A stretch of 64,000 nt of DNA, taken from assembly GCA_977017645.1 (NCBI GenBank), contig OZ360231.1, forward strand, positions 37,572,001 to 37,636,000. Direction: 5' to 3'. Source of the stretch: Torpedo marmorata (taxonomy: Eukaryota). This document shows positions 8,570 to 61,835 of the stretch, one piece after another. The translations under genes were made by a program, and so were the position numbers. The notes beneath the pieces are model-generated. The model was not told the DNA's origin, did no database searches, and saw only the letters and a program-made list of their open reading frames with translations. How positions within the stretch are numbered: the first letter of the stretch is position 1; every line of letters starts with the position of its first letter.

Positions 8570-8745
8570 ATGTATGTAACCAATGTTTCGGGCCTGATCT
8601 TAACTCGATGAAGGGCTCAGGCCCGAAACGTTGGTTACATATCTTTTGCTACAAAAGGAATGCTGCGTGACCTGCTGAGTTTCCCCAGCACTTTTGTGTA
8701 TTGAACTACAATCAAAGCGTTTGCAAACTTTCTTGTTTAACACTA
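8570..8745 (+). mobile_element. Penelope-like terminal fragment with short 5' inversion and hammerhead-like motif
   Basis: Contains tcgatga-agggctcaggccc-gaaacgtt (8605-8632) and an inverted copy of the adjacent arm at 8572-8597. Flanking direct repeat ataactaattggga (8556) / ataattaactggga (8746). Confidence 0.75.
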
Positions 8746-8852
8746 ATAATTAACTGGGACCCTGCTTCCGAATGAATTCAAACCACAAGTTCTCAAAGTG
8801 GAATATTAACGGCTTCCAATTAATAGAAAAGGAATAGGCAGACACAGATCCA

Positions 8853-10950
8853 TCAAGTCAAGTCAAGTCAAGTCACCTTTATTTGTCGTTCATTACCATA
8901 TACACAGTAAGACAAGATAGCGTTTCTCCAGGACCATAGGCAGATGTACATAAATATCATAATACAATAGAAAAATCTATAGCATGCTAATACACATACA
9001 TATCTAGGAATTGAGGAGCCTGATGGCTTGGGGGAAAAAACTGTTGCACAGTCTGGACGTACGAGCCCGAGTGCTTCGGTACCTCCTTCCAGATGGCGAA
9101 GGGGAAAACAGTTTACCAAAGGGGTGTGAGAAGTCCTTCACAATGTTTTTAGCCTTCCTCATGCATCGTGTGTTGTAGATGTCTGTCATGGTGGGGAGAG
9201 ACACTCCAATAATTTTCTCCGCTGCCCTCACTATCCTCTGCAGGGTCTTTCGGTCCGAGGTGGTACAGTTACCAAACCAAGCGGTGATGCAATTGCTCAG
9301 AATACTCTCAATACATCCCCTGTAGAATGTAGTAAGGATAGGGGGTGGGAGATGGACTTTCCTCAGTCTTCGCAGGAAGTAAAGATGCTGCTGGGCTTTC
9401 TTGACTATGGAACTGGTGTTTAGGGACCAGCTGAGACTCTCCGCCAAGTGCACTCCAAGAAACTTGGTACTCTTTATGACCTCAACGGTAGAGCTGTCCA
9501 TGGTCAAAGGAGAATGATCTCCCCGGGCCCTTCTGAAGTCGACAACCAACTCTTTTGTTTTGTTTACGTTCAGCTGCAGGTTGTTGTTTCCGCACCATTC
9601 CATTAGCAACTGCATCTCATCTCTGTATGCTGACTCATCATTCTTACTGATAAGGCCCACCACGGTTGTATCATCAGCGAACTTTATGATGTGATTCGAG
9701 CTGTGGTTTGCTGCGCAGTCATGAGTCAGCAGGGTGAACAGCAATGGACTAAGCACACAGCCCTGGGGAGCCCCCGTGCTCAATGTAATGACCTTAGAAG
9801 TGCTGTTTCCAATCCGGACTGCCTGAGCTCTTCCCGTCAGGAAGTCTAGGATCCAATTACAGAGGGTGTAGTTTAGGCCCAGCCCCCTCAACTTCCCTAT
9901 CAGGTACTGAGGTATGATCGTGTTGAATGCCGAGCTGAAGTCAATAAACAGCATTCGAACATACGCGTCCTTAGTTTCCAGGTGGGTGAGGGCTAGGTGG
10001 GGGGTGGTAATGATGGCATCATCTGTGGAGCGGTTTGATCTATATGTGAACTGCAGGGGGTCCAGTGAGGGGAGCAGCAGAAGCTTGATGTGCCTCATGA
10101 CGAGTCTCTTGAAGCACTTCATGACGGTAGATGTGAGTGTGACAGGGCAGTCATTGAGGCAGGACACCATCGACTTCTTCGGCACGGGGATGATGGTAGC
10201 GGCTTTGAAGCACGTTGGAACCACAGCACTGGTCAGGGAGATGTTAAAGATGTCGGTGAGAACATCAGCCAGCTGAGCCGCACATCCCCTGAGCACTCTG
10301 CCGGGAATGTTATCTGGCCCAGCAGCTTTCTGTAGGTTAACCTTGCTTAACACTCTCCTAACGTCGGCCACTGTGAAACACAGCACCTGATCATTTGGAG
10401 GAGGGGTTGACTTCTTTGCCACTACATCATTTTTTTCCTCAAAACGCGCGTAGAAGTTGTTCAGTGCATCTGGGAGGGAGGCATCACCAGCACAGTCAGA
10501 TGGTGTAGTCTTGTGGTTAGTGATATCTTGAATGCCCTTCCACATGCGTCGCGTGTCCTTGCTGTCCTGAAAGTGACTCTGAATTCACTGGGCCTGTGCA
10601 CGCTTTGCCTCCCTGATGGCCTTAGACAGCTTGGCTCTTGAGATAGCTAGGGTTACCTTGTTGCCTGCACTGAAGGCAGAGTTTCGGCTCCTCAGCAGCA
10701 CACGCACCTCCGCAGTCATCCATGGCTTCTGATTAGAGCGAGTAATGATGGTCTTGGGCACAGTGACTTCGTCAGTACACTTACTAATGTAGCTAGTCAC
10801 CGATGCCGTATACTCCTCCAGGTTGATGCAGTCGCCATCGGTTGCTGCTTCCCCGAACATGTGCCAATCAGTACGCTCAAAGCAGTCCTGAAGTGCATTG
10901 GATGGCACCTGCTGGCCAGGTTTTAACCTGCTTCCGAACTGGTCTGCTCC
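8853..10950 (-). mobile_element. Rex1/Babar LINE, about 2.1 kb 5'-truncated copy with near-intact reverse transcriptase
   Basis: 513-aa ORF 9004-10545 with RT motifs ([27 protein letters not shown]). The upstream ORF 10585-10908 is in the same frame, separated by a single TGA. (ttgac)n tail at 8853-8875. Confidence 0.95.
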
Positions 10951-11104
10951 TTCTATCCTCCCATTTTAACAACACAGAATATATCAGTGGATGAAGTGCC
11001 TGCGGACTCCAGTGGACGTCTCATTGATAAATGTAAAAGGAGCCCTGTGACAAAAGTAGAGAAGGCATAATGCAATAGCATGCTAACTAACTGGTCATTC
11101 ACCA

Positions 11105-11462
11105 AGTTAAACAGGAAAGTCTGTAGATGCTGTGGTTACAGTGCAATGCACAAAAGTGCTGGAGAAACTCAACAGGTCATAACCAAAGTTACAGCCTGAG
11201 CACTTTTTCAAATTATAAGCAAAACACAGGTAGGTTCCTGAATAAAAAGGTGGGGGGAGGGGGGGGAGGAGAGGAGGGAGGAAGGGGCAAGGGGATGATT
11301 ACAGGCTAGCAAGTAAGAGGTGGGAGGGTAAAAGAGAAAAAGGCTGAGAAGTGATAAGGGGATGGGGTAGCTTTCTGAATGGAGAGGGAAGGGAAGGGGG
11401 TGGGGTACTGGAGGAAAGGAGAGAGAGGGATAGGGACACGGGGGGAGGGGTTTAATGGAAAC
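11105..11462 (-). mobile_element. Penelope-like 3' fragment (terminal unit + pyrimidine-rich UTR)
   Basis: Shares gtgctggagaaactca and the purine-rich tract with 47763-48377 and 50280-50815. Confidence 0.7.
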
Positions 11463-11464
11463 TG

Positions 11465-11748
11465 GAGTGTGCCCCTATTGTACCAGCCTCCACTACCACC
11501 CCCGGCATGTATTCCAGGCACCCACCACTTTGAATTAAAAAAACTTACTTCTGACATCTCCCCTCAACTTCCCTCCACTCCCCTTAAATCAATGTCCTCT
11601 GGTATTTGCTATTGTCGCCCCGGGAAAAAGGTGCTGGCTGTCCACCCTATCAAAGCCCCTCATCATCTTGTATTCCTCTATTATGTCACCTCTCATCCTT
11701 TGCTGCTCTAAAGAGAAAAGTCCTCGCTCTGTCAACGTTGCTTTGCAT
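11465..11748 (-). mobile_element. CR1 3' fragment
   Basis: CR1-type cccctattgtaccagcctccactaccacc...aggcacccaccac segment, repeated elsewhere in the window. Confidence 0.7.
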
Positions 11749-19829: not shown

Positions 19830-20300
19830 AGAGACTGGAGAGCACAAAGTTCCTTGGTGTGCATATAAAGGATGACCTATCCTGGACCCACAACACTTCC
19901 TCATTTGTCAGAAAGGCACAGCAGCGCCTACACTTCCTAAGCAGGTTAAGGAGGGCAAGGCTACTGGCACCCATTTTGACAACTTCTTACAGGAGCACAA
20001 CTGAGAGTGTCCTGTCAGGCTGCATCATTGCGTGGCATGGTAGCTGCAAAGCATCCGACTGGAAGTCAATACAGAGGATCATCAAAACGGCTGAGAAAAT
20101 CACTGGGGTCTCCCTTCCCTCTATTGATGACATTTACTGGGAGCATTGCTTAAATCAGGCTCAAAGAATAGGCTCTTACCATCCAGCACACAGTATCTTT
20201 GACCCACTACCCTCAGAAAGGAGGTACAGGAGTGTCAAAATCAGGTTGGGAAATAACTTCTTCCCGCAGGCTCTGAGATTGATGAACAGTATCCTGCAAC
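19830..20300 (+). mobile_element. Older Rex1/Babar LINE 3' fragment
   Basis: ORF with DDLSWTHNTSSFVRKAQQRLHFLSRLRR...FFPQALRLMN. Confidence 0.85.
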
Positions 20301-21680
20301 CAAGTAAATCATCCCAAAATATTTATATATATTTATTTTAAATTATGTGTGTGTGTGTGTGTACGCTCAAACACACACGTTTGATGCCAAACTTGCACCA
20401 TGATATGGTGAAATACATCAGTGGTTATTCACTATCCGACGACAGGTGTATGATCTTGGGGAGAGGGCTGCTGGAATGCAGGAAAGCATCTCAACGCCAG
20501 CCACTGCTTAAGGAAATAAAAATAACCATCTACTTCTACTTTCAAGGATGCAGCATAAAAAATAGATAAGTGCAAATATAGATGTGAAAATATCCATGGT
20601 AAATCAAGCAGAGAAAATTATTGCAAAATGCATGAGAGCTCCCTTTTTAAATTGCAAGTCATGTAGCATCTGATGAGTGTTAAACATAAGCACAAGCAGG
20701 TAATACTTTATGAAAAAAACCATTTATGAATGGAAGCAGATAATTGGCTTGAAAGCTAAAGGGCTTTCCATTAGTCAAAGTATTAGGCAAAGGGCTTATC
20801 CTTTTTTATATATCATAAACTTTAGAGAAAGGAAGACAAGTACTTTTTCATTGTGCATAACAGATGTTTTGGTAAAACCTTCATAAAATCAGTCTCCAAA
20901 GTATAGAAACTCGTTCCATCATCGCAAAATTAAATTTCACTGCTACATTTCCCTGTTTCCATCTGCTCCCATTTCTCTTACCCTTCAATAACCTCATCAC
21001 TTGCTACAAGCCTGCCATGGTGAGAAATAAAACAAAGATAATTTGAGACTTCAGAAAGTAATGAAGGAGGTGTTCCAGTGATTTAATAAAGGAAGATCAA
21101 TGTCCTCAGAACTGAATAATATCTTGCTGCACACTGCGCTATCAATAAAGTGCTGTCTCCAGAGCATGAAACCTGTTTTAACCCAGTGTGGGCCTCCAGG
21201 AAGGATAATAAATCTCATGATGGACAACAACATTCTGCATTGGCATGGAGTCTTCCGTGCAGTAAAGCATCCATCGTGTGTTACATGACCATTATCAAAA
21301 AGATAATTTGGCAAGTGAATTTTAAGGAGCAGCTCAGAGGACAAGGGAGAGAGGGATGAGATGGGGTGTGTAGCGATGAGATTCATTCCATTTATTAAGG
21401 AAATTCCACACTGGACAACTGAACCATGACTACTAGTGGTGGGTAAAGGACACGGAGTTTGCATATGGGGTTGGAACTGCATGTTGGACAGCAGAGAACA
21501 CTGTGCTGTGAGTGTGGGTAAAGATGCACCCAACTTATTGAGCTGTGTTTTCACAAAGTCAATAGAGACAGAATGACCTCATTCTCTCCTGTTTGATTCT
21601 ACAGTTATATTCCATTCTTTGGATCAAGCCATCAGATATTTTATGGGGTATGACACTGGCACCAGAGAAATAATTCTGAG

Positions 21681-21815
21681 TTAAACAAGATAGTCTGCAG
21701 ACACTGTGATTGTAGTTAAAACAAAAATGCTGGAGAAACTCAGCAAGTCACGCAGAGTTCTTTATGTAGCAAAGATACCTAACCAATATTTCGGGCCTGA
21801 GCCCTTCATCAAGGT
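21681..21815 (-). mobile_element. Penelope-like terminal unit (135 bp) with hammerhead motif
   Basis: The minus strand begins ACC-TTGATGA-AGGGCTCAGGCCC-GAAA-TATT-GGT. Perfect 12-bp TSD aataattctgag (21669-21680 / 21816-21827). Confidence 0.8.
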
Positions 21816-23748
21816 AATAATTCTGAGGCCCAAGTTCAAATCCCACTGTGGGAACATTGAAATTTAATTTAGTTAATACAGTATTCTGGATTTTTTTAAA
21901 AAAATGGTCATTAGTAATGAAGACTGCGAGACCTAGTTCCCACCTGGATCACTGATGTCTACCTGGGAAGAAATCTGCCATAATTCCCAAGTCTGGCTGG
22001 TCAGTGACTCCACTGTGGCTAACTCTGAAATGGATAAAAAGCTATCTGGATTAAAAGTATTTAAGATTGGGCAATAAATGTTGGCCTTGCCAACAATGCC
22101 CAGATGCAAAAATATGAATTTAAAATAATATACCTTAGAGGGGAGTCAGGAACATGTTTTAATGAATATGGCACCCTCTTAGTGCAGCACTGGAGCCTTA
22201 ACCTGTGTTTTACACTCGTCTGTGGAGAGAGAATCATCTGACTCAATGACTGGAGCGAAACTACTGAGGACAGATAGTATGACTGGAAAGTGGATATCTT
22301 TACATGGCATGATGGTGTTTTGATTGCATTTAGGATTATTAAGATAGCCAATCAAGAACAAGAAATAAGAATTGCTGTTAATTCCTCATCTTCTTTCCCT
22401 CGGTGTACGAAATATTGCCCCCTTTTACTTTAGTCTTGACAAAGGGTCCTGACCTGAAACGTTGACTGACCAGTTCTACCCATGGATGATCCCTGACACA
22501 CTGACTTCTTCCAGCAACTCGTTGTTTGCTCAAGATTTCAGCAGGTGCAGTTTTTGTATTTCTCTTTACTATAAGGACAGAAAAGAGTAATGATGTAATA
22601 ACTGCAGCAACCTTCAGAGGATGGAGGAACAGTCCTTTCAGGAATAATTAAGATGGGACTGTACTCATTGGAGTTTAGAAGATTTGGAAGTGATCTCATT
22701 GAGAGATTCAAGACTGATAAAGTAGATACTAAGAGATTGTTTCTTCTAGCTAGAAAGTGTAGATCAGCGAGACATAATTTCAGGACAAGGAAATTTTGGA
22801 GACAGTTCACATCCAATCTGGTTGTGCATTCAAGGTCATTAGTAAGTATGTCCTGAGCTTTATTTTTAGTTGGCTGCCTTGGGCAATGCTGAACAAAGGA
22901 TCTGAACTGGTTAGGATACGATTAAGCATGAGGAGAACAGATGAGTTCTGAAATAAAATGAAAGGGATCTTTTTGGAAAAGGTACCCAGTTGGGACATGC
23001 TCCACGAAGCTCCCCTTTAAAAGTGGGGAGAAATTTATGCAAGCAGTTTTTGAAAGCTGTAGCATTCACTATGCAGCTTGCTGTGAATGCTCACTCACTG
23101 CATACCTACAGGCTGATAGATTTTTGGACTAAAAACACAAGAAATGAAAGCAAAAGTGAGCTAAATCAGAGCTAATAGAAACATAAATTTGTAGCATCAC
23201 TAAATTGTTCCTGCACAGAAAGAGGCCATTTGGCCCATTTTGGGAAGATTGATGCTATCTTTCCCTTTCGTCATGCTCTCCACTAATCTGCAAGTTATTC
23301 TTTCTCAAGTACATGTCCAATTCTTTTTATGCAAAGCACTCTTTTCACGTCTAAACTCGCAGCGAATTTCAGACCCTGAGCAAAATGAGGGGAAGAAAAT
23401 TTCCTCATGCTAAAATTTTAAATCTGTTTTCCTCAGTCTTCATGCTGTTTACAAATGGGAATGGTTTCCTTCTCTTTAACCTGACCTAAGCCATTCATTT
23501 AACTTAGCTCACACCATCAAAGGTCTCAACCATTCATGCTCCAAGCAGAACAATCTTACTCTTTCCAGTCTCACTTTGGAGCTGAAATACCTCATGCCTG
23601 GAACCACCTCTTATAATTCTTCATTCAAACTCTCTCCAGGGGCTACAAATCCTTCTCATGGTGGGTTTCTATACCTTCGAGTACTTTTGCTTCTCTTATA
23701 TTCCACACATCCATTTATGAATCCCAGCATGCCATATCTTTCAACATG

Positions 23749-23872
23749 TAATATGCAAACATGCTGGAGAAACTCAACATCCATAGGAAGAGTAACCGTT
23801 TCCGGCCTGGTCCCTTCGTCAGGTGTTGTGTATTGTACTCAACACCAGCATCTGCAGACTTTCTTGCTTAAC
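23749..23872. mobile_element. Penelope-like inverted terminal fragment
   Basis: Both orientations of the terminal unit are joined. TSD tctttcaacatg (23737) / tctctcaacatg (23873). Confidence 0.7.
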
Positions 23873-23942: not shown

Positions 23943-24470
23943 TGAATCAAAATTTATTGTCATGAACATGTCATGAAATTCGCTGTTTTGGGGCAGCATC
24001 ACAGTGCCAACATTTATATAAACCACATTACCAAATAAATAAAAATAGTGCAAGAAAAAGAAAAAGACAGTGTCTTTGATTCATTGATCATTCAGAAATC
24101 TGATGACAGCGAGGAAGAAGCTGTCCTTGTGCCGTTGAGTGCTCGTCTTCAGGCTCCTGTACCTTTTGCCCCGATGGTAGCAGAGTGAAGAGGGCATGGC
24201 CTGGGTGGTGGGGGTCCTTGAAGATAGAGGCTGCTTTCTTAAGATACAGCCTCTTGTAGATGTCCTCGATGGAGTGAAGACTGGTGCCTGTGATATCGCA
24301 GGCCGAGTTAACAACCCTCTGGAGTTTTTTCTTGTCCTGAGCATTGGCACCTCCATACCAGACAGTGATGCAACCAGCCAGAATGCTCTCCACGGTACAC
24401 CTGCAGAAGTTTGAGAGTCTTCGGTGACATACCGAATCTCCTCAAACTCCTCACAAAGTGTAGCCGCTGT
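23943..24470 (-). mobile_element. Rex1/Babar LINE 3' fragment (family A-related)
   Basis: Encodes ESILAGCITVWYGG...KDPHHPGHALFTLLPSG. Similar to 4884-5646 but with distinct substitutions. Confidence 0.88.
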
Positions 24471-26439: not shown

Positions 26440-27605
26440 GAGAGACTTAGTGAGTTCAGCAGCATCAGTGGGAGAAAATAAATGGCTGACATTTTAGGCT
26501 GGAACCCTTCATCAGAAAAGAGAGCGTAAATGGGAGGTCACCAGTAATAATGAGGATGGGGTGGGAGGGGTTAGGCAAGGGCCGGTGAACCAAGGAGGGG
26601 TGAAGGATGATGGACAGAGGCAGTTGATTGAAAGGTGCCAAACAAAGGGAGAGCGAGGGAAGAGGGAAACAAAAGAGGTCAGGTGGAGGAAGACGAGTTT
26701 ATACTGGGTGGAGGGGGTGAGAAGTGGAGGCAAAGTCAGCCATGGCTGGAATCTGAAGAAGCAGCGGTGACAATAATGAGAGCTGTTTGGGGAAGAGGTG
26801 AAGGACAGATGGGACCACATGGAATCGAAGGGAGGGGGGAGGGAAAGGGGGGTGGGAAATGAGGGTGGAAGAGGATGGAACCAGAGAGGGAGGGGGAATG
26901 AGAGGGGCAGGGTGGGGTGGGAGAAGGGACAAAAATGGGGGGCAAGGTGGGGGGGAGAACAGAAGTAGCTCAGAAGAGAAAGACGACTCATTACCTGAAA
27001 TTGGTAAATACAGTCATTAGGCTGCAGATGGCCCAGGCAGAATATGAGGCGTTGTTCCTCTAGTTTGCATTGGGGCTCAGTCTGGCAGTGGTGAAGGCCC
27101 AAGGCAGGTCAGTGGGGGAAGGGAAGCGGAGTTGAAATGGCATGTATCCGGGAGCTCGGGATGACTATTATGGACAGAGTACAGGTGCTCTGCAAAGGGT
27201 CCTCAAGTCTGCATTTGGTCTGACTGATGTAGAGGAACCCCCAGCGGCAGAACCATCTGCAGTGGATTGGAGGAGGTGCACATGAATCTTTGCCTCACCT
27301 GGAAAGGCAGTTTGCATCCCTGGATGGTGGCAAGGGAGGAGGTGTGAGAGCAAGTTTTGTACTTCCTGTAGTTTTAGGGGCAAGTATGAGGGGTCACGGG
27401 GAGGGATGAGCAGACAAGGGAGTCATGGAGGGAGCCATCCCGGCAGAAGGCAGAAAGGGATAGGGAGGGGTAGATGTGACTGGTGGTGGGGTCTGGTTGC
27501 AGCTAGCAGAAATGGTGAAGGATGTTCTACTGAATGCAGAGGCTAGTGGGGTGAAAGGTGAGGACAAGAGGAACCCTATCCTCCTCCTCTTTGGAGGGTG
27601 GTGTC
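26440..27605 (-). mobile_element. Penelope-like element 3' part with decayed GIY-YIG endonuclease
   Basis: Minus-strand frames give RVPLVLTFHPTSL, FLYISQTKCRL (YIG-TKR motif) and GLHHCQTEPQCKLEEQRLIFCLGHLQPN. These are followed by a pyrimidine-rich UTR and a terminal unit with a CTGATGA core near 26510. Confidence 0.82.
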
Positions 27606-27691
27606 AGAATGCAGTTGAAGATTTTCCATATCTTTATCAAGATTCCTTTATTGTCACGTAATAGTACATAACAAGTAATATTACACAAAAT

Positions 27692-31819: not shown

Positions 31820-31960
31820 ACATACCTTGATGAAGGGCTCAAGCCCGAAAAGTTGGTTACGTATCTTTATCTTTGCTATACAAAGTAAATGTTTGACCTG
31901 CTGAGTTTCTCCAGCATTGTGTGTTTACTTCAACCACAGTGTCTGCAGACTTTCATGTTT
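31820..31960 (+). mobile_element. Penelope-like terminal unit with hammerhead motif
   Basis: atacc-TTGATGA-agggctcaagccc-GAAA-agtt-ggt (core 31827-31850). Short flanking repeat attggga. Confidence 0.8.
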
Positions 31961-34449
31961 TCCATGATTGGGAGATAGGAGACTCGTGTTTATCAACAAT
32001 CCCCGGCACTCTTGTGAAGCGCACAGCTGGTTAGATCAGATATGGATCATCATTTCCTGATTATAGCTAGCCCCACGGATGGTGCATTCAAAGCAGGCCA
32101 ATTTTGCATGATCTCTGATTTGTATATTTCCAGACCAGTTCCAGGTTATCCCTATTCTGCCTTCATTAATTTGGGATTGTGGCTGCTTACTGTGTTGATG
32201 TGCACATTAGTCACATATAGGTGATTTTAGTGCCCATTTTATGCTCATGTAACGGACATGTTGCCTACTGATCTGGGCCATAGAAACTGATAAATGTCAA
32301 GAACCACAGGCAAAATAGGTAAATCTCAACAAATAACAATCACCTCTCACTGAGTTTCATTCAGCGGTGCACAGTATTTTTTTTGACCTCTCCAGAACTC
32401 AGTCATATGATAATGGATTCGATCCTTGTGACCTTGTCTGCATTGCGTCCTGATGGCGTATGCTTTCAGGAGTCTTAACTGAATGTGATGACTGAAGTTA
32501 CTGACCCAGTAGAGTTGTCGACGTAGCTTCAGCACAATGCTTTCACATGTTCACACCCGATTTAGCAGCAGAACAATTCCAGTGCATAATTAATCGCTAC
32601 TGTATTGTATCTGGAATCAACCAGCTTCCTGGTGCATATTTCTAATTGAGTAAATTTTACTTGATGAAGGTGTGGTGCATGCTTTTGGTGAGAGAAGGGA
32701 TAACATCTCCTCAGTGGCAGTCAGGGAGGCAAAAGAAGAAACAGACTTCTATTGCCTCTCAATGTTCCTCCAAGATAACTGGTCATGTTGAAGGATTAAA
32801 CATCAGAGCCTTGGACTAATCTCCAGAAACACGAGCCCAAATACTTAAACGACAGCGAGGGAATTTAATTTCATTTAATTTTAATTTACAGCGCAGAAAC
32901 AGGCCCATGAGCCCACACTGCCCATATACACCCGCGTGACCAATTAACCCGCTAACCTCGTGCGTCTTTGGAATGTGGGAGGAAAATGGAGCACCCAGAG
33001 GAAACTCCTTACAGACAGAAATTCTGTTCAAGTCTGGAATACAGGGCCTGTTTTATAATAGTATCGCTGAAACTAGGGAGTTCTAAAAACCTATCTGCTT
33101 CACCAAAGACACTCAAGGGACTGTCAATGCTGGAATTTGGAGTAAAAAACAACCTACTGGAGGCACTCAGTGGGTCGAGCAGCATTAGTGAGAGTAAAAG
33201 AATTTCCAGTCAGAACCCTCCATCAAGACAGGCGAAATGTTCCAATCCAAAACGCTAACTGTTCTTTTGGTCCCACTGACGCTGAGTTCCTCCAACAGGT
33301 TGTTTTTTTTTTGCTCCTGCTTCACCAAATGTCCTCTAGGGAAGGAAACCTACCACTCTTACTAAAGGGCCGTGGGGAAGACTGGAGGAACAGGACTGAT
33401 AAGACTGTTCTACTGAGAGCCGAAACACACTTGATGGCTTGAATGGCCCTCCTGTGTTGTAACAATTTTACGATTCTGTGAAATGTGATTCCAGATGCAT
33501 TGCAATGTGGTTGACTCTTAATTGCCCTCTGAAGACAGTTCATGCAAGATTAATGAGGAATAGGCAATAAGTGTTTGTCTTCCTAGTGACGATCACAACC
33601 TGTAAATTAATTTAAAAACCTCACAGCTTCTACAATTTAAGCTTCCTCCATAATTAGTAAAATGGATCTTTATCTGAGATTTCAGTGAGGGTTATTTCTG
33701 GAACCAATAACCATTTGAAAAAGAATATTTGTGCTGCTGCAGCTGGGAGTTGAAATAATTTGATCCAAAGTAAATTCCATCATCTAAAAATAGATTAAAC
33801 ATTTTTTATGGATTAGGAAGGAACGTCTTTAATAAGATGTCCGTGATTTTTCTTCAAGATGAATGCAGTGTGTGGTTGCTTTTTATTACAACTATTCAAG
33901 ATTATCATTTTTCTTATAAAAGATGTGCCTGCTGCACATTTATAAATGAGTTTTAATGATTGGTGCTGTGCAGTTACATTAGGTATCTCTTGGATAACTG
34001 TCAGGGGAAGATAATTCACTACCTTGTATCATAATAATGGCATGAATTGGAAAAACTAGCAACAAGAATGGACAGAATGATTCATTGCGGCTACTGAGTG
34101 ACACTGGAATCTGAAGAAGTAAAGAATCACTTCTATTTGTATAGCACTTTTCATAATATGGTTGTAAAGCACCATGGGATAGCTTCAATTAAATCATATT
34201 GATAGATAATAGCAATGTTTTGAACATTGGCCAGTCCCTTGGAAGAACCATCATTTTTTTTTTGAAAAATGCATCCTACTCTATCCACTTGAGTGGGAAG
34301 TTGTTGAATGTCCCATCTGAAAGAGCTATAGGTTTAAGGTCCTGTACTGTATTCCACGCTAATTCCTCTGGAGGGGAATGAATCCACAACTCCTGAAATT
34401 AAAAATAAGAAGGAGCAACCATTATGCCAAGGATAAAGAGCAATCACCC

Positions 34450-47762: not shown

Positions 47763-48377
47763 GTAAAACACGCAAGTCTGCAGACACCGTGATTGAAGTA
47801 AAAACACAATGCTGGAGAAACTCAGCGGGTCAAACAATGTACTTTATATAGCAAAGATAAAGATACAAAACCAACGTTTTGGGCTTGAGCCCTTCATCAA
47901 GATGTGAGCAATATGTAGGCAGGCGCCCGAACAAAATGGTGGGGGGATGGGCAGGGGGAGGAGCACAGTCCCACAGGCAGAAGGCAATAGGTGGATAAGG
48001 GAGGGAGAGCACACCAGCAAACAGGGGGAGGGGGGATGGCTCTGTGAATGGAAAGGGAAGGGCGTGGAGAGCTGCAGGAAAGAAGATAGAGGGATGGAGA
48101 AAAGAGGGAGAACGGGGAGTGGTCTAGCAGAAACCGGAGAAGTCGATGATAATGCCATCTGGTTGGAGAGTGCCCAGACAGAATATTAGGTGTTGTTCCT
48201 CCAATTTACGGGTGGCCTTGGTTTGACAGTACATGAGGCCATGGACAGACATACTAGTGCCTTAGTGGGGTGCAGAATTGAAATGGTTGGCCACTGGGAG
48301 ATCCCTGTCATTGATGCGGACAGAGAGAAGGTGCTCATCGAAGCGATCTCCCAGTCTGCGACCAGTCTCTCCGATGT
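47763..48377 (-). mobile_element. Penelope-like 3' fragment (ORF end + UTR + terminal unit)
   Basis: The minus strand carries YIGETGRRLGDRFDEHL (GIY-YIG) and KLEEQHLIFCLGTLQPDGI, plus a hammerhead-like motif at 47870-47905. TSD agaagtacttggg (47750) / agaagtactttgg (48378). Confidence 0.88.
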
Positions 48378-49413
48378 AGAAGTACTTTGGAATCAGGTGC
48401 ACATGTATCCCAGCACCTGTAGGCCTTATCCCCAGCCGCACATTACCCTGACTCGCAAATATATTGCTCTTCTTTTATTTTGACTGGATTTAAGTCCCAG
48501 AGCTTGAGAGCATAGATTTAACGTTAGAGGTAAAATATTTAGAGGGGATTGGAGGAGGAAATATTTCACCCAGAGGTTGGTTGGAATCTGGAACGCACTG
48601 CCTGAGTGCATGCTTCTTGCAGGCACTCTCACAATATTCAACAAGCAACTAGACGAGCACTTGGTTCACCAGGACATAAAACGTTGTGTAAAGGGATTAG
48701 TAAAGATGGGTACGATAGTATGGACAGGGTGAGCTGAACAGCCTGTTAAGGTACATATCCCTACACCATGATTCCTGCTGCTCTCATTCACATGTCCACA
48801 TTTCAAAGTTCTAGCTGTGATGTCAAATATGTATGGCCTGCTTTTAGAGGCCACTAATATGCTCCTGGTGACCTCCACGTGTAGAAATTTGTGCACTGAA
48901 GCTTGTGATTCAAAGTCCGCTTTATGTTGTGTGCTGATCATATTTGGCAATTCATTTTATTCTCTTGATTTTCAATGCAATGCATCTTTCCAGCTTGTTC
49001 CACCTTCTCATAACCCGACATATTTTTCTGTAAGGCCATGTTATTGAACTGCTCTTTTTCTTGACGGTGCCTCTATTGTTCTAAATGGAGGTGGTGCAGT
49101 GGGCTGATCTTCTTCCTCTCTGAGATGCTCGTACGTTTAGTGCAAGCTGAGTTAACGACTCACCCCACTGTTCATCTGTTATGAGTTGGGTTATTGAAGA
49201 GAGTGTTGAGAATATCCCAATTTTCTCATCAGTGCAAGTCCATAGCTCATGGCTCCCCACAAATTGCCATGAACCTCTCAAAGAATGTATTCATTCAAGG
49301 TTCATAGACATTACTGGCAATGCCAGCAATTGTTGGCCACCACCAATATCCCTGAAAATAAGAAGGCTTGTAAGAATCAACCACATTTGTGGTCCAGGGT
49401 CACAAAGAGGCCA

Positions 49414-49616
49414 AGTAAAATCACAATGCGGGAGAAACTCAGCAGGTCAAACAGTGTACTTTATATAGCAAAGATAAAGATACATAACCAATACATACAT
49501 ACCTTGATGAAGGGCTCAAGCCCGAAACATTGGTTATGTATCTTTATCTTTGCTGGGTTTCTCCCGCATTATGATTTTACTTCAATCACAGTGTCTGCAG
49601 ACTTTCGTGTTTTACT
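49414..49616. mobile_element. Penelope-like inverted terminal structure with hammerhead motif in the loop
   Basis: Two opposing arms around TTGATGA (49504-10) ... GAAA (49524-27). Confidence 0.82.
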
Positions 49617-50279
49617 CACACTTAAGGCAGACCAGTTGAGGAAGGTATATTTCCTTCCCTGTAGGGCATCAATGACCCAGGTTGCTTTTTGTAACAATCC
49701 AATCATTTCACATTTGCCATTTCTGAGATGAGATGTTTTGGTTCCAGATTTAACTACTCATTTAAATCCCCCACCTGCCATGAAAAGATTCAAACTCATG
49801 TCTTTGGATCATTGATCCAGAACTCAGACAACTCGTTCAGTAACATTGGGGAAAATCTACTACGAATCATTAGTGCTTCATTCTGAACTTAAAAGGTTTC
49901 CAATTCCACAGCATTTGTTATTGTAGTGCTTAGAAGGAATGCTTCTTGTGCCAATTGAATCATTGCCAATCAGGAAGAGGCAGCACTCGTATGTTCAGTA
50001 GTATTACAACTTAAAACTGCACAGTCCAAAGGATTCACTGCATCCCATCTCTTAACAAGACCCCCTGGGAACTTACAGAATGCATCAAGGGTTTTTCTTC
50101 AGCTGAATAAAGTAACATTCTAAAGGCAATATCTATAATCCCACTTGGTATTTTCATCCCAAGACTTGCACTGGAACCTAGTTTGAAGTCCAAGGGTACC
50201 ATTGGGTCATAGGGCCAGTCATGTTTGATTTGCATTTCCTTTGCTTGTAGACGTCTGATCTAATAAACAGCAGGAACAA

Positions 50280-50815
50280 AGACACAATACGCAAAAGTGC
50301 TGGAGAAACTCAGCAGGACACGCAGCATCTATAGGAAATAAAGGGCAACCAACGTTTCAGGCCTGAGCCCTTCAAATTTAAATTAAATTTTAAATTTAGA
50401 CATACAGCACGGTAACAGGCCATTTCGGCCCACGAGTCCGTGCCACCCAATTTACACCCAATTAACCTACACCCTGGTATGTTTCGAACGGTGACAGGAA
50501 ACTGGAGCCCCCAAGGAAAACCCACGCAGACACAGGGAGAACGTACAAACTCCTTACAGGCAGCGCGGGATTCGAACCCCGGACCCGATCTCTGGCACTG
50601 TAAAGGCGTTGCGCTAATCGCTACGCAAACCATGAAGGGTATGAGCAAAAAACAGGCAAGCACCTGAGTAAATGGAGGAGGGGAGGGGGGAGGAGAGGAG
50701 AGGAGGGAGGAAGGAGCAGGTGGAGGAGCACAGGCTAACACATAATAGGTGGATGCAGGTGGGAGGGTAGAAGAGAAAGCAGCTGAGAAATGATGGGGGA
50801 GGGCAGCGCTGAAAA
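50280..50815 (-). mobile_element. Penelope-like terminal fragment split by a V-SINE (50374-50631, minus strand)
   Basis: gcccttca|V-SINE|tgaagggtatgag; the flanks match the terminal unit and UTR of 47763-48377. Confidence 0.8.
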
Positions 50816-51480: not shown

Positions 51481-54400
51481 GGAGAATTACTCCAGTTGGT
51501 GTGAGAGCTGCCTGTTATAGGGTGGTTGCGAGAGCCCCATTTACTGAAGTTTATTATTTCCTCCTTCTGTATTAATAGTGTTGGAGAACTTCAGCAGTGT
51601 CACCTCTTTGGAATAAAACTCTTTGTAAGGGAGCATGTCTGTGCCATCAAAAGGCTCTGTATCAGGCTTTGCTTCAGTGAAGCAAGTAACAACATTTAGA
51701 AATAATCTAATACATTTAAAAATAAACACAAGCTACCATCAAAACCTACAAATATTCACGGTATAATTATTTGCATTGGACAGATATGGCTCAGCTTTTT
51801 TTTTACAGTTTCTTTTTACTCACAGGATGCCAGTACCATGGGTAAGGCCAGATTTATTGCCCATCATGAAATCCATAATGTAAGGGCCAATTGAGAAGCC
51901 ACCCAATTGTCAATCAGGGTCGGAGTCACATCTTGCTCAGACTGAGGAGTTCAAATGAATTCTCTCACTGAAGTGTACTTGTAAGCATCAAAGGATTTTT
52001 TAAAATAACAATCCAGCGGTTCCATGGTCTCTATTACTGATACTAACTTTTATTCATGGGGATGAATGGCGAGGTTAAGATGGATGAATTACTAGTCCTG
52101 CATATAGAGATCTGGACTTTTGATTCAAATAGTACAAAATTAAATTGTTTCAAATTCACATATTAAAAAAATATCCAAAGTACATGCTAATATAAACTAT
52201 CATTAAAGCTGATATAAAAACCCAGCTGGTTCACTGCTCCTTCAAGGAGGGAAGTCTGTCATCCTTGCCCAGTTTGGCTTACAAGTGAGTCCAGACATAC
52301 AGTAAAATGGCTGACTATTAGCCTGCTTCCCGAAATGTCCAACAAACTATTCAGTACAAGGAGTGACAGGGGCTGGAAATTAAATGTTGCCCATTGTGTG
52401 AATGTAACATTTGAAAATATTCAGGAATGATTTAACGAACTAATTTTAACCCGAGATTTGAACACCTGCCTCTGGACAGTAGCATAAAAACGATGCTGAT
52501 GTTCACTGTTGATATTCTAAAAGCCAATCGAATATAAAGTAACAGCAGTTCTCAGGGCTCAGTTAATCGTGGCTTGGGATTCTCAGACCAAAGGCTGTTT
52601 CATGTCACTGGAGGGGGGATGAAGACAGTGCTGAGAAGCTACTGTTCATGTGCACCCTTTCAACAGCACTGGTCACAGACTGGAAGTTGCTGAGATTTTT
52701 TTGCCATTCAGAGTAAACGTGTTGGCACTTATCTGTAGCACTCCTCCATCACATTAACCTTACTGCGGTGAAGGTCCACGGTGCACTTTAGTTGCTGACA
52801 CAGCCGAATGTTCCTGTGCAGGTAATTGTATTTCCCAAAGAAGCTCTGTCCTAGTCAGACTTCCACTGTGCATTACAGCCAGCCATTCTCAATTTTAATG
52901 GTGACCAATAACATGCTGACTAAAGGCAGGGGGATTGGAGTTATTTCCAATGCACGCCAAGTATCCATTGGACTCTATTAGAACATAGAAGTAAAGACAG
53001 GCACTTCAGCCCACTTTGTAAACCTACTCCACAACAATCTAATTTTTCCCTACCTCACATCTATAACCCTCTATCTTTCTTACATCCATGTGCTTAAGAG
53101 TCTTTTGAATGTCCCTATTGTACCAGCCTCCACCACCCCCAGCAATGCATTCCAGACACCCACCACACTACGAGTTAAAAATAAAACACTACCTCTGACT
53201 TCTCCCCTAAACTTTCCTCCACTGACATCATCTTCAAGAATGCATCAAGTAACCATGGATCTGGAAAGTTACTGAGCCACCAACAGAGAGATCTGGACTA
53301 ATGATATGCTGCTGGTAAATTAAAGATTTTGATGGAAAGCTAATACGAGTTACAGTGACCATTGTTGCTATTAAAACCTCTCTTGCTTACCAATGGTCTT
53401 CAGGAAAGGAAGTCTACCATCCCTACTTGGTCTGGCTTATGTGTGACCGCAGGTCTACAGTAAGTGACTGACTCATGCTCCTTTGAAATTCCCTTGTCAG
53501 CCCATGAGCAAGGAACAATGAGCATTAAATGTTAGCCGAGTCTGTAATGACATTGAGAATATTGTCTCAATGGAAATGTCTGAGGTGCTGCACTAAGATT
53601 TTCCCTGGAATCCCACAAAGGAGGGAGAGCAAGTGCAATAATCAGCAACATTTGGAGCAGCAGTCTAGCCTGTGAGGCCTGTGTAGGCAATAAACATTGG
53701 CAGCTGAACAGAGAAGAGACAAAGGGGACCACTTTCTCCAGAGGTAAACCACAAGGCTGATACTGCCATCTTTATCAACATCATTTCCAAGTCACCCCTG
53801 AGATAGATCAGACCCACAGAGGTTTAAGACTCCAGTTCACCAAGCCCTCATTTACATAGGATAGACAAGGAAGGAGAGCCAAGTGAAGGGAGATGGTGAT
53901 CAGGTTTTTAGATAGTGATTGGATCCCCACATCCAAATCATCCTTAATGCCCCATTCAACTGCAGAGGAGAATCCAAATGTGGAAGTCCTTGCACAACAA
54001 GGACAACAAGTAACATGGGAGTTAAGTGTTTCCGAATGCACTGAAAATCTCAGAGGTTTGAACAAGAACTCCCATCTCTATAGAAACACATGGCAGTATA
54101 TTATCACTCGTTCTCACTAATAAGAGGTTTGAACCACTGATCATTTCTATACTTAGATACATTTTTAACAGCAGGGGATAAAGCAATCCAATTCCACACA
54201 AGTTAATGGAAAGAGATTCTAAGTGCCTCTTTGCAGCAATCTTCCATTATTACAACCATAACTCATTAAACTCTTATCAACTGTGAATTACAGAGGCGGC
54301 CTATCTCGCATCCTGTGAATTCCCACAAAATTAAGTATGGGATGTGAAGTTAATCATAGATAGGGAGCAGAAATAGCTGGTTATAGCACCATCACTGATA

Positions 54401-57041: not shown

Positions 57042-57093
57042 AAACAAAACACTGAAACAAAGTTTGAGAAAGAGAAGCCATCAGATAGTAAAG
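57042..57093 (+). CDS. pcp4: PCP4/PEP-19-family gene, internal coding exon (exon 2 equivalent): KQNTETKFEKEKPSDSK + first base of split Asp codon
   Basis: Polypyrimidine tract ttttgctttcttttccAG ends at 57041 and the donor AG|gtaaaa starts at 57094. The exon is 52 nt, phase 0 to phase 1, the length and phase I recall for mammalian PCP4 exon 2 (RQGAGATNGKDKTSGEN-G). It splices in frame (G|AT = Asp) to 63840. Confidence 0.85.
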
Positions 57094-58176
57094 GTAAAAC
57101 CTTCATTTCTATCTATTTTAAACTAGACTTGCACAACAGGGAACTGACAGAAGGGAAGCTGAGAGGTCTTCAGCAATTGAATGTTTTCATGTTGAAATGG
57201 TTTCTTCAGGGGATTTTTGCACCGTGGAATCTCTGCTCAGGAGATTGTGCCAAAAATAACACTAGAACACTCCAGCCCTGGCAATATCTAATTTGTCTTC
57301 TACAAAAAGTCTGGAAATTACAAAGATAAAGGAATTTGTTACTGGTTGCAGCAATAAATTGCTGCAAAACAAATCTTGTTTTAATGACTGCACTAAACTG
57401 CCAGCTGAAGCGAATCAGTTTGCACAAGTGTTGCTGATGTGAATGAAGGGTATTTCACTCCCTGACTGTTTAGGGGCAAAATCCCTGTTTCTGCCCCTGT
57501 GGGCCAGCTGAACAGTCAGCCCACAAGTGTGTACAGTTTTTTCTTTTGCACTACCAATAAGTTGTAATTCTGCCTCACCTGCAGGAAAAAAGAATCTCAG
57601 GGTTGTATGTGATGTCATGTATGTACTCTGACAATAAATCTGAAATCAAAGATTCCAGCTGTGTCCTGAGCCATGTGCAGATGGTAAAATACCTCTGCAC
57701 ACTTTGTGTAATTGGCCACAGATGCTCAGTATAGTAAACAGCTTCACTTTGACATTTCTTTTCCTTCCTTTGCTTTTTAAAATTTATTTTCCCTGTTCCA
57801 GTGTGGAAAAGCCTCATTTTTATCTAAACCCATTGACTTACCGGTAACTAGTCATTAACTTGATTAAAGAACAGAGGATGCTCAGGATAATCAAATCCTC
57901 AGCTGAAAGAGAAACATTTTCCCCCTGACTGCTTATCTTTTGAAGGCATTGACTTGTTACTTGGATTTGGTGTTCTGGTCACTATTCCTGCATCAAAGGG
58001 CAATGCTTTCCATAGTCCAGACAGTGAGGATCAGTCCACTGTCAGGCAGACTCACAGAATTACTACAACATAGAATGGGGGCCATTTGATCCAATGAACC
58101 CATTCCAAATCTATGCAAGGACAATCCAGTCAGTCATTCAAGCCCTTTCCTCTAATGGTATTTTATTTCCAGAGAA

Positions 58177-58362
58177 GTTAACCAAGAAAGTCTGCAAGGG
58201 TCAAGTGCAATACACAAATGTGCTGGAGAAACTCAGCAGGTCATGCAGCATCTATAGGAAGTAAAAGGTAACCAATGTTTCAGGCCTGAAACGCTGGTTA
58301 CCCTTTACTTCCTTTGGCGTTGCGTGACCTGCTGAGTTTCTCCAGCATGTTTGTGAGTTGCA
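58177..58362. mobile_element. Penelope-like inverted terminal structure
   Basis: tgctggagaaactcagcaggtca ... tgacctgctgagtttctccagca arms around a tttcaggcctgaaa palindromic centre. Confidence 0.78.
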
Positions 58363-58518
58363 TTATTTCTGCAGAATGTGTCCAATTTCCTTTTAAATAT
58401 GATGAATGTATGCACTCCCACCAGACTTTTAGGTTTGAATGACAAATCTTGGAGACTAACTGCATGAAAATATTCATCACGTCACCCCTGGCTCTTCTTT
58501 CAATCCATGTCCTCTGGA

Positions 58519-58594
58519 GCTCAAACCTCCCATTAATGCTCAAACCTCCCATTAATGCTCAAACCTCCCATTAATGCTCAAACCTCCCATTAAT
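58519..58594. repeat. Perfect 19-bp tandem repeat x4 (gctcaaacctcccattaat)
   Basis: Direct reading: four identical units with no spacers. Confidence 0.95.
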
Positions 58595-59113
58595 GAAAAC
58601 AGTTGCTCTCTGTTCACTCTACCCGAATCCTTCCAAACACAAATTAACTTCCTTAGCTCCAGTAAGAATCATCAAAACTTCCCCATATTTCGCACATAAT
58701 GGAAGTCCCTCAGAGACTATTCCACAATCTTTTCTGCATCTTCTCTTGGACCTTCACTCCCTTCCCATAATGTGGTGACCAGAATTAGGTGCAAATAAGG
58801 AGCTATCACAGAGGAGCTTCTGCCCCCAACTTCCCGGCAGTGAATCTCTTGATTTCCTTTCAACTTTATTCAGCCTGATGAAACACAAATGAAGGCTGAC
58901 TAATCCTTCCAGTGCATTCCAGCGAACAAATGATGGCTGATTTGTGATCCAACTCCCTACACCGACCTTTCCCCTTGAAACCTTTGCTATCGGAAATCTA
59001 CCAACTACCACCCTCAGCTTTGAAGTTAGTATCTGACACACCATTAATTAGCATATGTAGAAGAAAGTTTCATATTTCTACCACTGTCTTTTTCAAACTT
59101 CACTCTTGCAAGG

Positions 59114-59244
59114 AGTAAAACACGAAAGTTTGCAGACACCGTGATTGAAGTAAAAACACAATGCTGGAGAAACTCAGCAGATCAAACAGCGTACTTTATA
59201 GAGCAAAGTGTTTGACCTGCTGAGTTTCTCCAGCATTGTGTTTT
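59114..59244. mobile_element. Penelope-like inverted terminal structure
   Basis: Opposing arms; TSD cactcttgcaagg (59101-59113) / cactcttgtaagg (59245-59257). Confidence 0.8.
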
Positions 59245-60384
59245 CACTCTTGTAAGGCCTGGATCTAGACCGCACAGTCCTAGACTCTGCTATCAGTGGA
59301 AATGTTTCCTTTCCACTAGTTTTCCTTAATAATTTGAAATGATTAATCATATTAACTTCCAATTTCAGGAATATGACTCTAGTATTAAAGCAACACCACA
59401 AGATTTAAAACAAGAAGTTTTGTTGTTTATCACTTAATCTGGTGAGCTAAATTATTGACAAGTATTTTTTTAACAACATGAAATATTGAATGCCCCCAAT
59501 AAAGAGGGAGTTAATATTACATTTTACAAAAATAGGTCCAACAAAATTTGGAATTAAGCAACGGTGAATGGAACAGCACTGCTATAGATTGTAGGTAAAA
59601 ATTGAATGTTAAAAGGCGGGCCATTGAAGTTCGAGGAACAATTGATTTTGTTCTGGAGACAGAGTGATAAATCTTAGTTATAACCTAACGTGAATGCAAG
59701 AAGGGTAAAAGGTGTGGCGGGCAGGAAAATGGTACCTATTCCCTTCAGAAGTTGGAGAATGAAGAGGGTGGGGAAGGTGATGTACTTGAAGTACATAATC
59801 AGAACTGAGGGTGCAGAAGTGAAGAAATAATATCCAAAGCCATTATTGGAAAACCATTATTAGGTAGCAGGCAGATCCCCAGGAGCCCTTTAAAAATAAA
59901 TGCCACAGCACGTTAAAGCTCCTTTGCCCCAGAAATGGAGCAGTAAATTCAGTTTTTCCTTGCTGATCATTATTCGGCTCGTGCAGGTTAATTTGCTGAA
60001 CCAGCGTTTCTAAGAAGGCGATCAATGAGGATGCAGGCCGTGCCTGCTGCTGCCAATCAGCAGCTGGATTTAGGTGACTGTGTTCTGCTTATAAATAACT
60101 TTTATTTGCTGCAGTTATCCACTCATCGCATTCTGGAGATGTTGAGGTGCAAGTAACGAGTTGAGATATTGGAGGTGATGCCAGGGTGATCAGATGTGCC
60201 TTGCCCACCATATTGGTAAAAACAACAACCAAAATAAAACAAAAGAGCACCCACTGCTCAGGCCTGAAGTGGACTTATTGAAAAAGAAACTCTAAATGGC
60301 TTTCCCTGACCGTGGCTGGCGCTGAGGTGGACTGAATGATGGATTATGTGGAGAGGCAGGGGATCAGCAAATGAATTTTTAAAA

Positions 60385-60602
60385 AAATTACTACATAGAA
60401 AAAGCCGATTCCAGCCATTGAGACGCTTTGTCACACAATTGCACTCAATTAACCCACAGGGTTGGAGGGTGGGAGGAAACTAGAACATCCAGGGAAAAGC
60501 CATACAGGACATGGGGAGAATGTACAAATTCCTTACAGACAGTACCGGATTCGAACCTGGGTTATGGGCACTGTAATAGCACTACACTAACCGTGCCGCC
60601 CT
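60385..60602 (-). mobile_element. V-SINE, diverged
   Basis: Reverse V-domain and head (ggattcgaacc...aaccgtgccgccc). Confidence 0.75.
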
Positions 60603-60932
60603 ATTGAATGCTAGAATACGCTTAAAGGGCTGAATAATACTGCTCCTATTTTCTATGTTTCTTTGCAGGAAGCTTTTCTAACAGTTCTAAAAGGGAGCAT
60701 TTGAGCCCACCGTTCTGCATTAAAAAAAATACATACCTTAATTTTCAACCTGGAGATGCAGCAATGTTCCACTTCACTGGAACATGCAGTCAAAGGCCCT
60801 GGCTCTGCTCACCCACAACTGTTATAACTTTCTCTCCTCCAGGCACGCTCCCTCCCTTTCTCAGTGATGCCCCCTTCCCCTTAAAGTAATCAACAGAGTA
60901 GTAGTGGGGAAGGATAGGTATCCCGGTTAAAG

Positions 60933-61207
60933 AAATTTAAAATTTAAATTTAAATTTAGACACACATACAGCACGGTAATAGGCCATTTCGGCCCACGAG
61001 TCTGTGCCGCCCAATTTATACCCAATTGACCTACACCCCCATGAACATTTCGAACGGTGAGAGGAAACTGGAGCCCCCGGGGAAAACCCACGCAGACACA
61101 GGAAGAATGTACAAACTCCTTACAGACAGCGCGGGATTCGAACCCTGGTCCCGATCGCTGGCGCTGTAAAGGTGTTGCGCTAACTGCTACGCCAACCGTG
61201 CTGCCCT
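60933..61207 (-). mobile_element. Young V-SINE
   Basis: Reverse complement of the 7161-7422 family with an (aaattt)n tail. Confidence 0.9.
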
Positions 61208-61835
61208 ACTGAGAACTGGGGGGAGGGGGGGGAGAACAGCTTCAAATCAAGGCAATTAGGTCTGAACTAAGGAGAAATGTCTTCAGTGGGAGATGAATCT
61301 CTAGAATTCTCTAATTCTGAAGTTAGTGGAGACTCAGTTATTGAGTTAATTCAGAATAAATAAATAGATTTCCAGACATTAACAGGATCATGGGATAAGG
61401 CCAAAAATAATATTGAGGTAGAAAATGAACCATGGCGTCACTACAGAACAGATCCAAGAAGAAATTGGCCTTTTCTCACTCTTATTTCTTGTTCTCCCTC
61501 TCTCACCCAATCACTGACCTTCACACTCCCATCCAATCACTGAACTTCACACTCCCACCCAGTCACCGATCCGCACACTTTCTCTTTCAATAAGATGCTC
61601 CTTCTTCCAACCACTGTTCTCTTCCTTAACAGGAATCAAATCCTCTTGAAGGGTTTTGGCCCAAAATGTTGACTATCTATTGCCGTCCATGGATATTGCC
61701 AGACCTGCTGAGTTTCTCCAGCATGCTCTGAGTTGCTCCAATTTTCCAGCATCTGCAGCCTCTCCTGTTTTCCACTCCCACAAATAATTGCTGCCCTTTC
61801 CTCTCTCGGTTGCTTTCCCTTCCCTAATCTCCCTA

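What the first reader, a model, noticed from the sequence alone, without database searches (positions are those of the whole stretch)
8570..61770. Dispersed family of minimal hammerhead-ribozyme motifs in Penelope-like terminal units
Seen: the motif stemI-(C/T)TGATGA-A-GGGC-loop-GCCC-GAAA-CGTT-stemI' recurs at 8605(+), 21781-21815(-), 31827(+), 47870-47905(-), 49504(+) and 50348(-, split). Decayed versions lie near 22435, 26510 and 61645. At 49496-49540, stem I (tacatacc / ggt-t-atgta) and stem II (gggc/gccc) are complete. The same unit terminates GIY-YIG-encoding fragments (26440-27605, 47763-48377), which ties it to Penelope-like elements. Established: such elements carry minimal type I hammerheads whose short palindromic helix III (ACGU) is thought to need dimerisation. 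Unusual here: U at core position 3, an extra A after the core, and a GUU cleavage triplet. Inference: plus-strand copies would lie in the PCP4-like pre-mRNA if this region is intron 1 and could cleave it.
Basis: partly seen in the sequence, partly recalled or inferred. Interest (0 to 1): 0.7.

Follow-up and report, generated by a model that had tools for sequence, protein, structure and literature searches.

The report
Decayed Penelope hammerheads in electric ray
These are leftover ends of a Penelope-type jumping gene in electric-ray-like DNA, carrying a known miniature self-cutting RNA motif that is damaged in nearly every copy and so is unlikely to cut the neighbouring gene's RNA; this is an ordinary feature.

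Summary
The family is real and ordinary. The window holds 21 pieces of one terminal unit, against 0 in the reversed window. Twelve cover a minimal type I hammerhead core, and two end GIY-YIG fragments of a probably Neptune-type Penelope-like element (PLE). None of the six named copies matches the stated motif; only 21812(-) passes a descriptor, and no plus-strand copy does. Changes concentrate at CpG sites (5 of 20 against 5 of 155, p=0.002), as in neutral decay. The three 'unusual' traits are published in Cervera and De la Pena 2014 (my counts from their Fig. S3): extra nucleotide in 54 of 56 motifs, C-G-U-U in 15, and U3 with G8 in one (Saccoglossus). U3 is the one uncommon trait: 8 of 10 readable copies here, against 3 of 83 metagenome look-alikes. 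Cleavage of PCP4 pre-mRNA is unsupported: exon 1 was not located, sense copies are broken and at least 9 kb apart, and there is no strand bias (5 plus, 7 minus). This scan found the same thing before in other shark and ray genomes.

The parts
47763..48380 (-). 5'-truncated PLE insertion: broken GIY-YIG C-terminus (48381-48127), pyrimidine-rich 3' UTR, hammerhead (core 47900-47873, G12A), 110-nt 3' segment
   Evidence: flanked by a 12-of-13 direct repeat at 47750 and 48378
26440..27619 (-). Older PLE 3' fragment: linker and endonuclease remnant, 3' UTR, C3-type hammerhead with G12A at 26515
   Evidence: tblastn E 4e-33
21680..21816 (-). Solo terminal unit; the only copy passing the minimal-hammerhead descriptor (core 21812-21785, U3, ATAT helix III, 3-bp helix I); antisense to PCP4
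   Evidence: 13-of-14 flanking direct repeat
8571..8741 (+). Unit 8602-8741(+) with U4C and no helix I, preceded by an inverted partial copy 8571-8598(-)
31820..31961 (+). Solo unit starting at helix I; helix III palindrome broken
   Evidence: 10-of-11 flanking direct repeat
49413..49617 (+). Unit 49501-49615(+), helices I and II intact, helix III broken; preceded by an inverted tail-less partner 49414-49492(-)
50285..50803 (-). Unit with PLE 3' UTR, core split by a ~260-bp repeat (50375-50634)
22435..22536 (+). Second-subfamily unit: different but paired helix I (6 bp) and helix II, U3 with G8A
23749..23872 (-). C3-type decayed unit with inverted partial partner
   Evidence: 11-of-12 flanking direct repeat
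11106..11211 (-). Decayed unit behind a PLE-like pyrimidine-rich 3' UTR
33136..33227 (-). Old decayed unit, several core changes
58177..58377 (.). Inverted pair holding only the 3' half of the hammerhead, in PCP4 intron 2
59113..59248 (.). Inverted pair of 3' segments with no hammerhead, in PCP4 intron 2
   Evidence: 14-of-15 flanking direct repeat
61647..61770 (+). Decayed unit, core disrupted and G12A, in PCP4 intron 2
57042..57093 (+). PCP4-like coding exon 2 (context)
   Evidence: matches P0001 residues 5-20; AG and GT sites seen
63840..63973 (+). PCP4-like last coding exon (context)
   Evidence: 44 of 44 residues identical to P0001

Best explanation
These are truncated 3' ends of a very abundant, likely Neptune-type Penelope-like retrotransposon, each carrying a mutated copy of the known minimal type I hammerhead, and they are likely inert where they now sit. 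Shown: the unit follows GIY-YIG fragments on the same strand, several insertions have 10-15-bp flanking direct repeats and inverted partners, and the copies have decayed. Inferred from known PLE biology: in the parent element's tandem RNA, two hammerheads would pair through the ACGU palindrome, probably helped by the PLE protein, and would cut after GUU. The endonuclease would nick AT-rich DNA. Reverse transcription would start at two sites about 110 and 79 nt beyond the cut site, which gives the optional ~31-nt tail. It would often end at the 5' edge of the hammerhead, leaving ~140-nt solos. Solos keep both sides of the cut site, so they would have been copied from uncut or re-joined RNA.
For: Element link; one direct repeat brackets the endonuclease fragment and the hammerhead at 47763-48380. 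Flanking direct repeats at p<=0.0101 in 5 of 14 insertions tested. Abundance: 125,775, 87,166, 116,265 and 13,007 contigs laid from 4 of 4 runs. The majority letters in those runs restore what this copy lost: G12 in 3.15 of 5.08 M depth in X1 and 1.84 of 2.59 M in X2, and helix I at 47902, 47904 and 47868. Helix II is paired in 90.7% of cells; 6 of 10 pairs change on both sides, against at most 3 in slid controls. CpG-biased decay: 5 of 20 against 5 of 155, Fisher p=0.002. Fixed ends: loose ends pile at 47763 (4 of 4 runs), at 47794-47797 (2 of 4 runs among the rows shown) and at 47901. Literature: PMC4209133 (monomer inactive, dimer weak), PMC11167929 (protein-assisted cleavage, uncut RNA used as template, two RT start sites), PMC8557442 (inverted copies, 30-40-bp tail).
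Against: No cleavage was measured. No reverse transcriptase region lies in the window, so the clade rests on the cysteine linker of relatives, which is decayed here. Covariation is modest (9-39 of 500 shuffles reach the observed values, 11 related rows) and helix I is paired in only 63.6% of cells. G12 was below half in X6 (0.25 of 0.59 M) and X11 (0.12 of 0.34 M). 9 of 14 insertions showed no clear flanking repeat. The laid runs are of related organisms, not shown to be this species, and contig depth is no copy number.
Confidence: 0.88

Rival explanations
1. The U3 subfamilies are catalytically vestigial even in the parent element; the fold is kept as a protein-binding site or 5' boundary signal rather than for cleavage.
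For: U3 with G8 replaces the C3-G8 pair; in PMC9901934 all single changes in the CUGA turn gave low activity (a type III ribozyme). In PMC11167929, inactivating the hammerhead did not affect insertion in vitro and no reads ended at the cut site. PMC8557442 notes that Naiad PLEs proliferate without canonical hammerheads.
Against: The other core positions, helix II and the palindrome are kept in the family majority; a U3-with-G8 motif also sits in a Saccoglossus PLE. This rival concerns the parent element and is compatible with the copies here being inert.
Confidence: 0.3
2. Sense-strand copies cleave the PCP4-like pre-mRNA and tune its processing.
For: Domesticated intronic hammerheads exist in amniotes (PMC6155905). 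Pieces at 58279, 59193 and 61647 lie on the sense strand in intron 2.
Against: 0 of 5 core-covering sense pieces are intact. The intron-2 pieces lack or disrupt the core. Same-strand spacing of the four upstream sense copies is 9.4-17.7 kb. Strands are 5 against 7 (p=0.77). Exon 1 is unplaced: a single ATG-Ser-Glu-GT candidate at 53576 would put all six named copies upstream of the start codon, but such a match arises in 35 of 200 shuffles.
Confidence: 0.03
3. The ~140-nt units are a non-autonomous mini-element or retrozyme family that moves as its own RNA, not truncation products.
For: Shared start at helix I (21812, 31827; loose ends at 47901), shared 3' end and own flanking repeats. A bioRxiv preprint (10.64898/2026.07.22.740005) derives animal retrozymes from PLE terminal repeats.
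Against: No head-to-tail arrays of the unit appear in the self-comparison of the window, the same unit continues into 3' UTR and endonuclease in other copies, and 5' truncation is the rule for PLEs.
Confidence: 0.12

Closest known systems
Minimal hammerheads (min-HHR) of metazoan PLE terminal repeats, Cervera and De la Pena 2014 (PMC4209133)
   Same: [quoted passage not shown] Row Saccoglossus_kowalevskii(1) has U3, G8, the extra A and C-G-U-U together.
   Different: No cartilaginous fish among the 56 rows of Fig. S3; U3 with G8 is the usual state here but is 1 of 56 there; helix II is short (4 bp).
Neptune-clade EN+ Penelope-like elements (PMC8557442)
   Same: C-terminal GIY-YIG, cysteine linker in the nearest relatives, inverted truncated partners, optional 30-40-bp tail.
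   Different: Only 3' fragments here; no RT region to place on a tree.
Poseidon element PAc of Anolis (PMC11167929)
   Same: Hammerhead in the terminal repeat; copy ends beyond the cut site at two positions.
   Different: PAc has C3-G8 and was assayed; its clade lacks the Neptune linker.
Domesticated intronic hammerheads of amniotes such as RECK (PMC6155905)
   Same: Type I hammerhead in or near a vertebrate gene.
   Different: Those are single, conserved, canonical motifs; these are repeated, minimal and decaying.

Membership tests
min-HHR of PLE terminal repeats | Core boxes CUGANGA and GAAA around helix II | tested here: met
   Family majority has them apart from position 3; 4 of 9 scored copies have a changed box (U4C, G12A twice, G8A), and a fifth has A9G
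min-HHR of PLE terminal repeats | C3-G8 (or U3-A8) Watson-Crick pair | tested here: not met
   U3 in 8 of 10 readable copies, mostly with G8; the same exception is filed in the family by PMC4209133 Fig. S3, so it does not exclude membership
min-HHR of PLE terminal repeats | [quoted passage not shown] | tested here: met
   A in 9 of 9 scored copies
min-HHR of PLE terminal repeats | Palindromic helix III and NUH triplet | tested here: met
   ACGU then U in the majority; palindrome broken in 3 of 9 copies and U16.1 changed in 2 of 9
min-HHR of PLE terminal repeats | Helices I and II with compensatory changes | tested here: inconclusive
   6 of 10 pairs change on both sides; 9 of 500 shuffles reach this; only 11 related rows
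min-HHR of PLE terminal repeats | Self-cleavage as a dimer or with protein | not testable with these tools
   Needs an in vitro assay
EN+ Penelope-like element | C-terminal GIY-YIG endonuclease upstream of the terminal repeat | tested here: met
   (through relative P0121; no direct Pfam hit on the fragment)
EN+ Penelope-like element | Telomerase-like RT in the same frame | not tested
   Both fragments are truncated before the RT core; no genome is held for this window
EN+ Penelope-like element | 5' truncation, inverted partners, 30-40-bp tail, target duplications | tested here: met
Neptune clade | CX2-5CxxC linker between RT and EN; RT phylogeny | tested here: inconclusive
   Linker present in P0121 and P0124, partly decayed at the aligned place in 27619-27098; no RT tree
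Non-LTR retrozyme | Head-to-tail tandem units each with a hammerhead | tested here: not met
   No tandem arrays of the unit in the window
Domesticated intronic hammerhead | Intact sense-strand motif conserved at one locus across species | tested here: not met
   No intact sense copy; conservation across species not tested

The most novel reading that the evidence does not exclude
A hugely amplified ray PLE lineage has fixed a U3-G8 wobble that should cripple the hammerhead, while keeping the fold and using its 5' edge as the start of mini-insertions: a ribozyme turned into a protein-dependent or purely structural signal, directly testable against the C3 subfamilies of the same genome.
Probability: 0.25. 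Interest if true: 0.4.

Novelty: new member of a known kind. Interest (0 to 1): 0.12.

Why it matters
Little by itself: it extends the known PLE minimal hammerhead to an electric ray. The one usable point is a natural pair of U3 and C3 subfamilies in one genome, which would let a single assay ask whether PLE hammerheads need to cleave at all, a question the papers read here leave open.

Tried and rejected
Rfam scan of the window at E<=10: 13 weak hits, none a hammerhead family, none at gathering score; this is uninformative for motifs lacking helix III, and the mir-1277 and mir-883 hits are the inverted PLE pairs. No whole genome is held, so no genome-wide consensus or intron strand-bias test was possible. 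No RNA holder was listed for the unit; this says nothing on expression, and contigs cannot show RNA ends. The pattern forced the extra A and ACGT, so it tests only positions 3 and 17: C3 in 75 and U3 in 3 of 83 distinct contexts, H17 C in 69 and U in 11 (120 matches with enough flank, collapsed to 83). The depth drop upstream of 47901 was not used as proof of truncation, because the low-complexity 3' UTR and this copy's own changes also lower it. A two-copy fold of 21812(-) paired through helix II, not helix III, so folding gives no support for an active dimer. ATG-Ser-Glu at 7729 was rejected as exon 1 (no donor). A reading with C3 plus an inserted U was rejected because helix I pairs only in the U3 register. 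Lunse et al. (RNA Biol 14:1499) and Przybilski and Hammann 2007 are not held; only their titles were seen, and both may already report U3-G8 activity. Searches for a cartilaginous-fish report ('hammerhead'+'Penelope'; plus 'shark') found none specific; the bioRxiv preprint includes one chondrichthyan genome, and its supplements were not seen.
Full report
Setting. The window is cartilaginous-fish DNA. Its last PCP4-like exon (63840-63973, + strand) gives 44 of 44 residues identical to a Narcine bancroftii protein, P0001. Exon 2 (57042-57093) matches residues 5-20, with K where P0001 has R4. The source is therefore an electric ray or a close relative (inference). No whole genome is held.

Observation. 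A fuzzy scan found the six named copies. A profile from seven window copies found 21 pieces at E<1e-3 (8 plus, 13 minus) and none in the reversed window. A family pattern matched 4 times against 0.0 per shuffle in 100 shuffles. The stated motif is a consensus that no named copy matches. Of nine copies scored position by position, only 21812(-) has no defect beyond U3, and it is the only hit of a descriptor that requires a palindromic helix III. 8605(+) has U4C and a 1-bp helix I. 31827(+) and 49504(+) have broken palindromes. 47900(-) and 26515(-) have G12A, and 22436(+) has G8A. 50374(-), not among the nine, is split by another repeat. Among five similar copies, changes from their majority fall on 5 of 20 CpG positions and 5 of 155 others (p=0.002), the pattern of unselected methylated DNA.

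What the unit is. Upstream of 47900(-) lie a pyrimidine-rich tract and a broken frame. Its seven database relatives include P0121, which has Pfam GIY-YIG at E 7.6e-5; the window fragment itself had no Pfam hit. P0121 aligns to 48453-48112 and 27619-27098. One 12-of-13 direct repeat brackets 47763-48380, so the endonuclease fragment and hammerhead are one insertion; 5 of 14 insertions tested have such repeats at p<=0.0101. Inverted partial partners occur at 8571, 23824, 49414, 58279 and 59193, as described for PLEs (PMC8557442, passages). P0121 and P0124 carry the cysteine linker which that paper assigns to Neptune and Nematis, so Neptune is likely but was not tested by tree.

Family level. Laying four public runs of related organisms on 47740-48420 placed 13,007 to 125,775 contigs per run. 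The best-supported differences restore G12 (a majority in X1 and X2, under half in X6 and X11) and both strands of helix I. No change at position 3 (47900) is among the 40 rows shown, while its neighbours 47902 and 47904 are; 453 rows were not shown. Loose ends with mixed flanks pile at 47763, at 47794-47797 and just outside 47901. These mark a main 3' end 110 nt beyond the predicted cut, a second end about 31 nt shorter, and a common start a few bases before the core. The solos at 21812 and 31827 also start at helix I, next to their flanking repeats. In the 11-row window alignment, helix II is 90.7% paired, helix I 63.6%, and 6 of 10 pairs change on both sides (9 of 500 shuffles; slid controls at most 3). 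This is suggestive only.

Are the traits unusual? I read parts 1-3 of 4 of PMC4209133 and parts 1-2 of 3 of its supplement as machine text. [quoted passage not shown] By my count, Fig. S3 has it in 54 of 56 motifs, C-G-U-U in 15, U3-A8 in 2 and U3 with G8 in 1 (Saccoglossus 1, which also has the extra A and C-G-U-U). A-U-A-U as at 21812 occurs there too. U3 is thus the one uncommon trait: 8 of 10 readable window copies against 3 of 83 metagenome contexts. Pairwise mutagenesis of a type III hammerhead found low activity for all single changes in the CUGA turn (PMC9901934, passages). PMC7151607 (introduction) mentions a natural U3 variant with insertions, and PMC3088659 (one section) describes natural U3-A8. 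The effect of U3 with G8 in this context is untested in what I read.

Mechanism. Shown: anatomy, association with the element, decay. From literature: single min-HHRs did not cleave and dimers cleaved weakly. The Anolis PLE hammerhead cleaved only with the element's protein, its inactivation did not hinder insertion in vitro, and reverse transcription began at two internal sites that define the tail (PMC11167929, parts 1-2 of 4). Inferred: the same cycle produced these copies; they keep both sides of the cut site, so they came from uncut or re-joined RNA; once inserted singly they lack a partner and decay.

Host gene. The pieces certainly inside the gene (intron 2, 57094-63839) lack or disrupt the core. 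All six named copies lie upstream of exon 2. They are in intron 1 only if exon 1 lies further upstream, and the sole exon-1-like site with a donor (53576) is at chance level (35 of 200 shuffles). None of the five core-covering sense pieces is intact; the four upstream ones are 9.4-17.7 kb apart; core-covering pieces are 5 plus and 7 minus (p=0.77). Cleavage of the pre-mRNA is therefore unlikely.

Other papers seen: PMC6765202, PMC6155905 and PMC3884650 as passages; bioRxiv 10.64898/2026.07.22.740005 as part 1 of 5 and passages. Eight earlier notes of this scan report the same kind of element in other shark or ray genomes. They are unchecked and not independent support, but they prompted my test of flanking repeats and fixed ends.

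Verdict. Real, a new member of a known kind, mostly dead copies. Interest 0.12.

Noticed in passing
window 50375-50634, with copies at 7163, 11842, 14127, 17187, 25640, 27693, 55300, 60462, 60934, 63212: A ~260-bp dispersed repeat (75-88% alike, SINE-like) with about 11 copies; one splits the hammerhead core at 50374 and one sits just 5' of the 26440-27619 PLE fragment.
   Followed up: no
window 9004-10584(-), 4884-5761, 19793-20341, 23944-24470, 30198-31012: LINE-type reverse transcriptase fragments, one with a 526-codon open frame; copies at 4884-5646 and 30247-31012 are 96% alike. The family was not determined.
   Followed up: no
window 53576-53586: Only ATG-Ser-Glu followed by GT upstream of PCP4 exon 2; a possible exon 1, at chance level.
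   Followed up: partly
window 57042-57044: Exon 2 starts with Lys where the Narcine bancroftii protein P0001 has Arg4, so the window may be another individual or a related species.
   Followed up: no
loci L001-L121: Metagenome contigs hold many minimal hammerheads of the same layout, probably from animal host DNA, in several families with compensatory helix I; a few have two copies close together (L009, L025, L044).
   Followed up: partly
window 35504-36373 and 37288-37830: Further retroelement-like coding fragments (ORF1-like and a LINE C-terminal-like frame).
   Followed up: no
window 58516-58597: Short tandem repeat of a ~20-base unit, about four copies.
   Followed up: no
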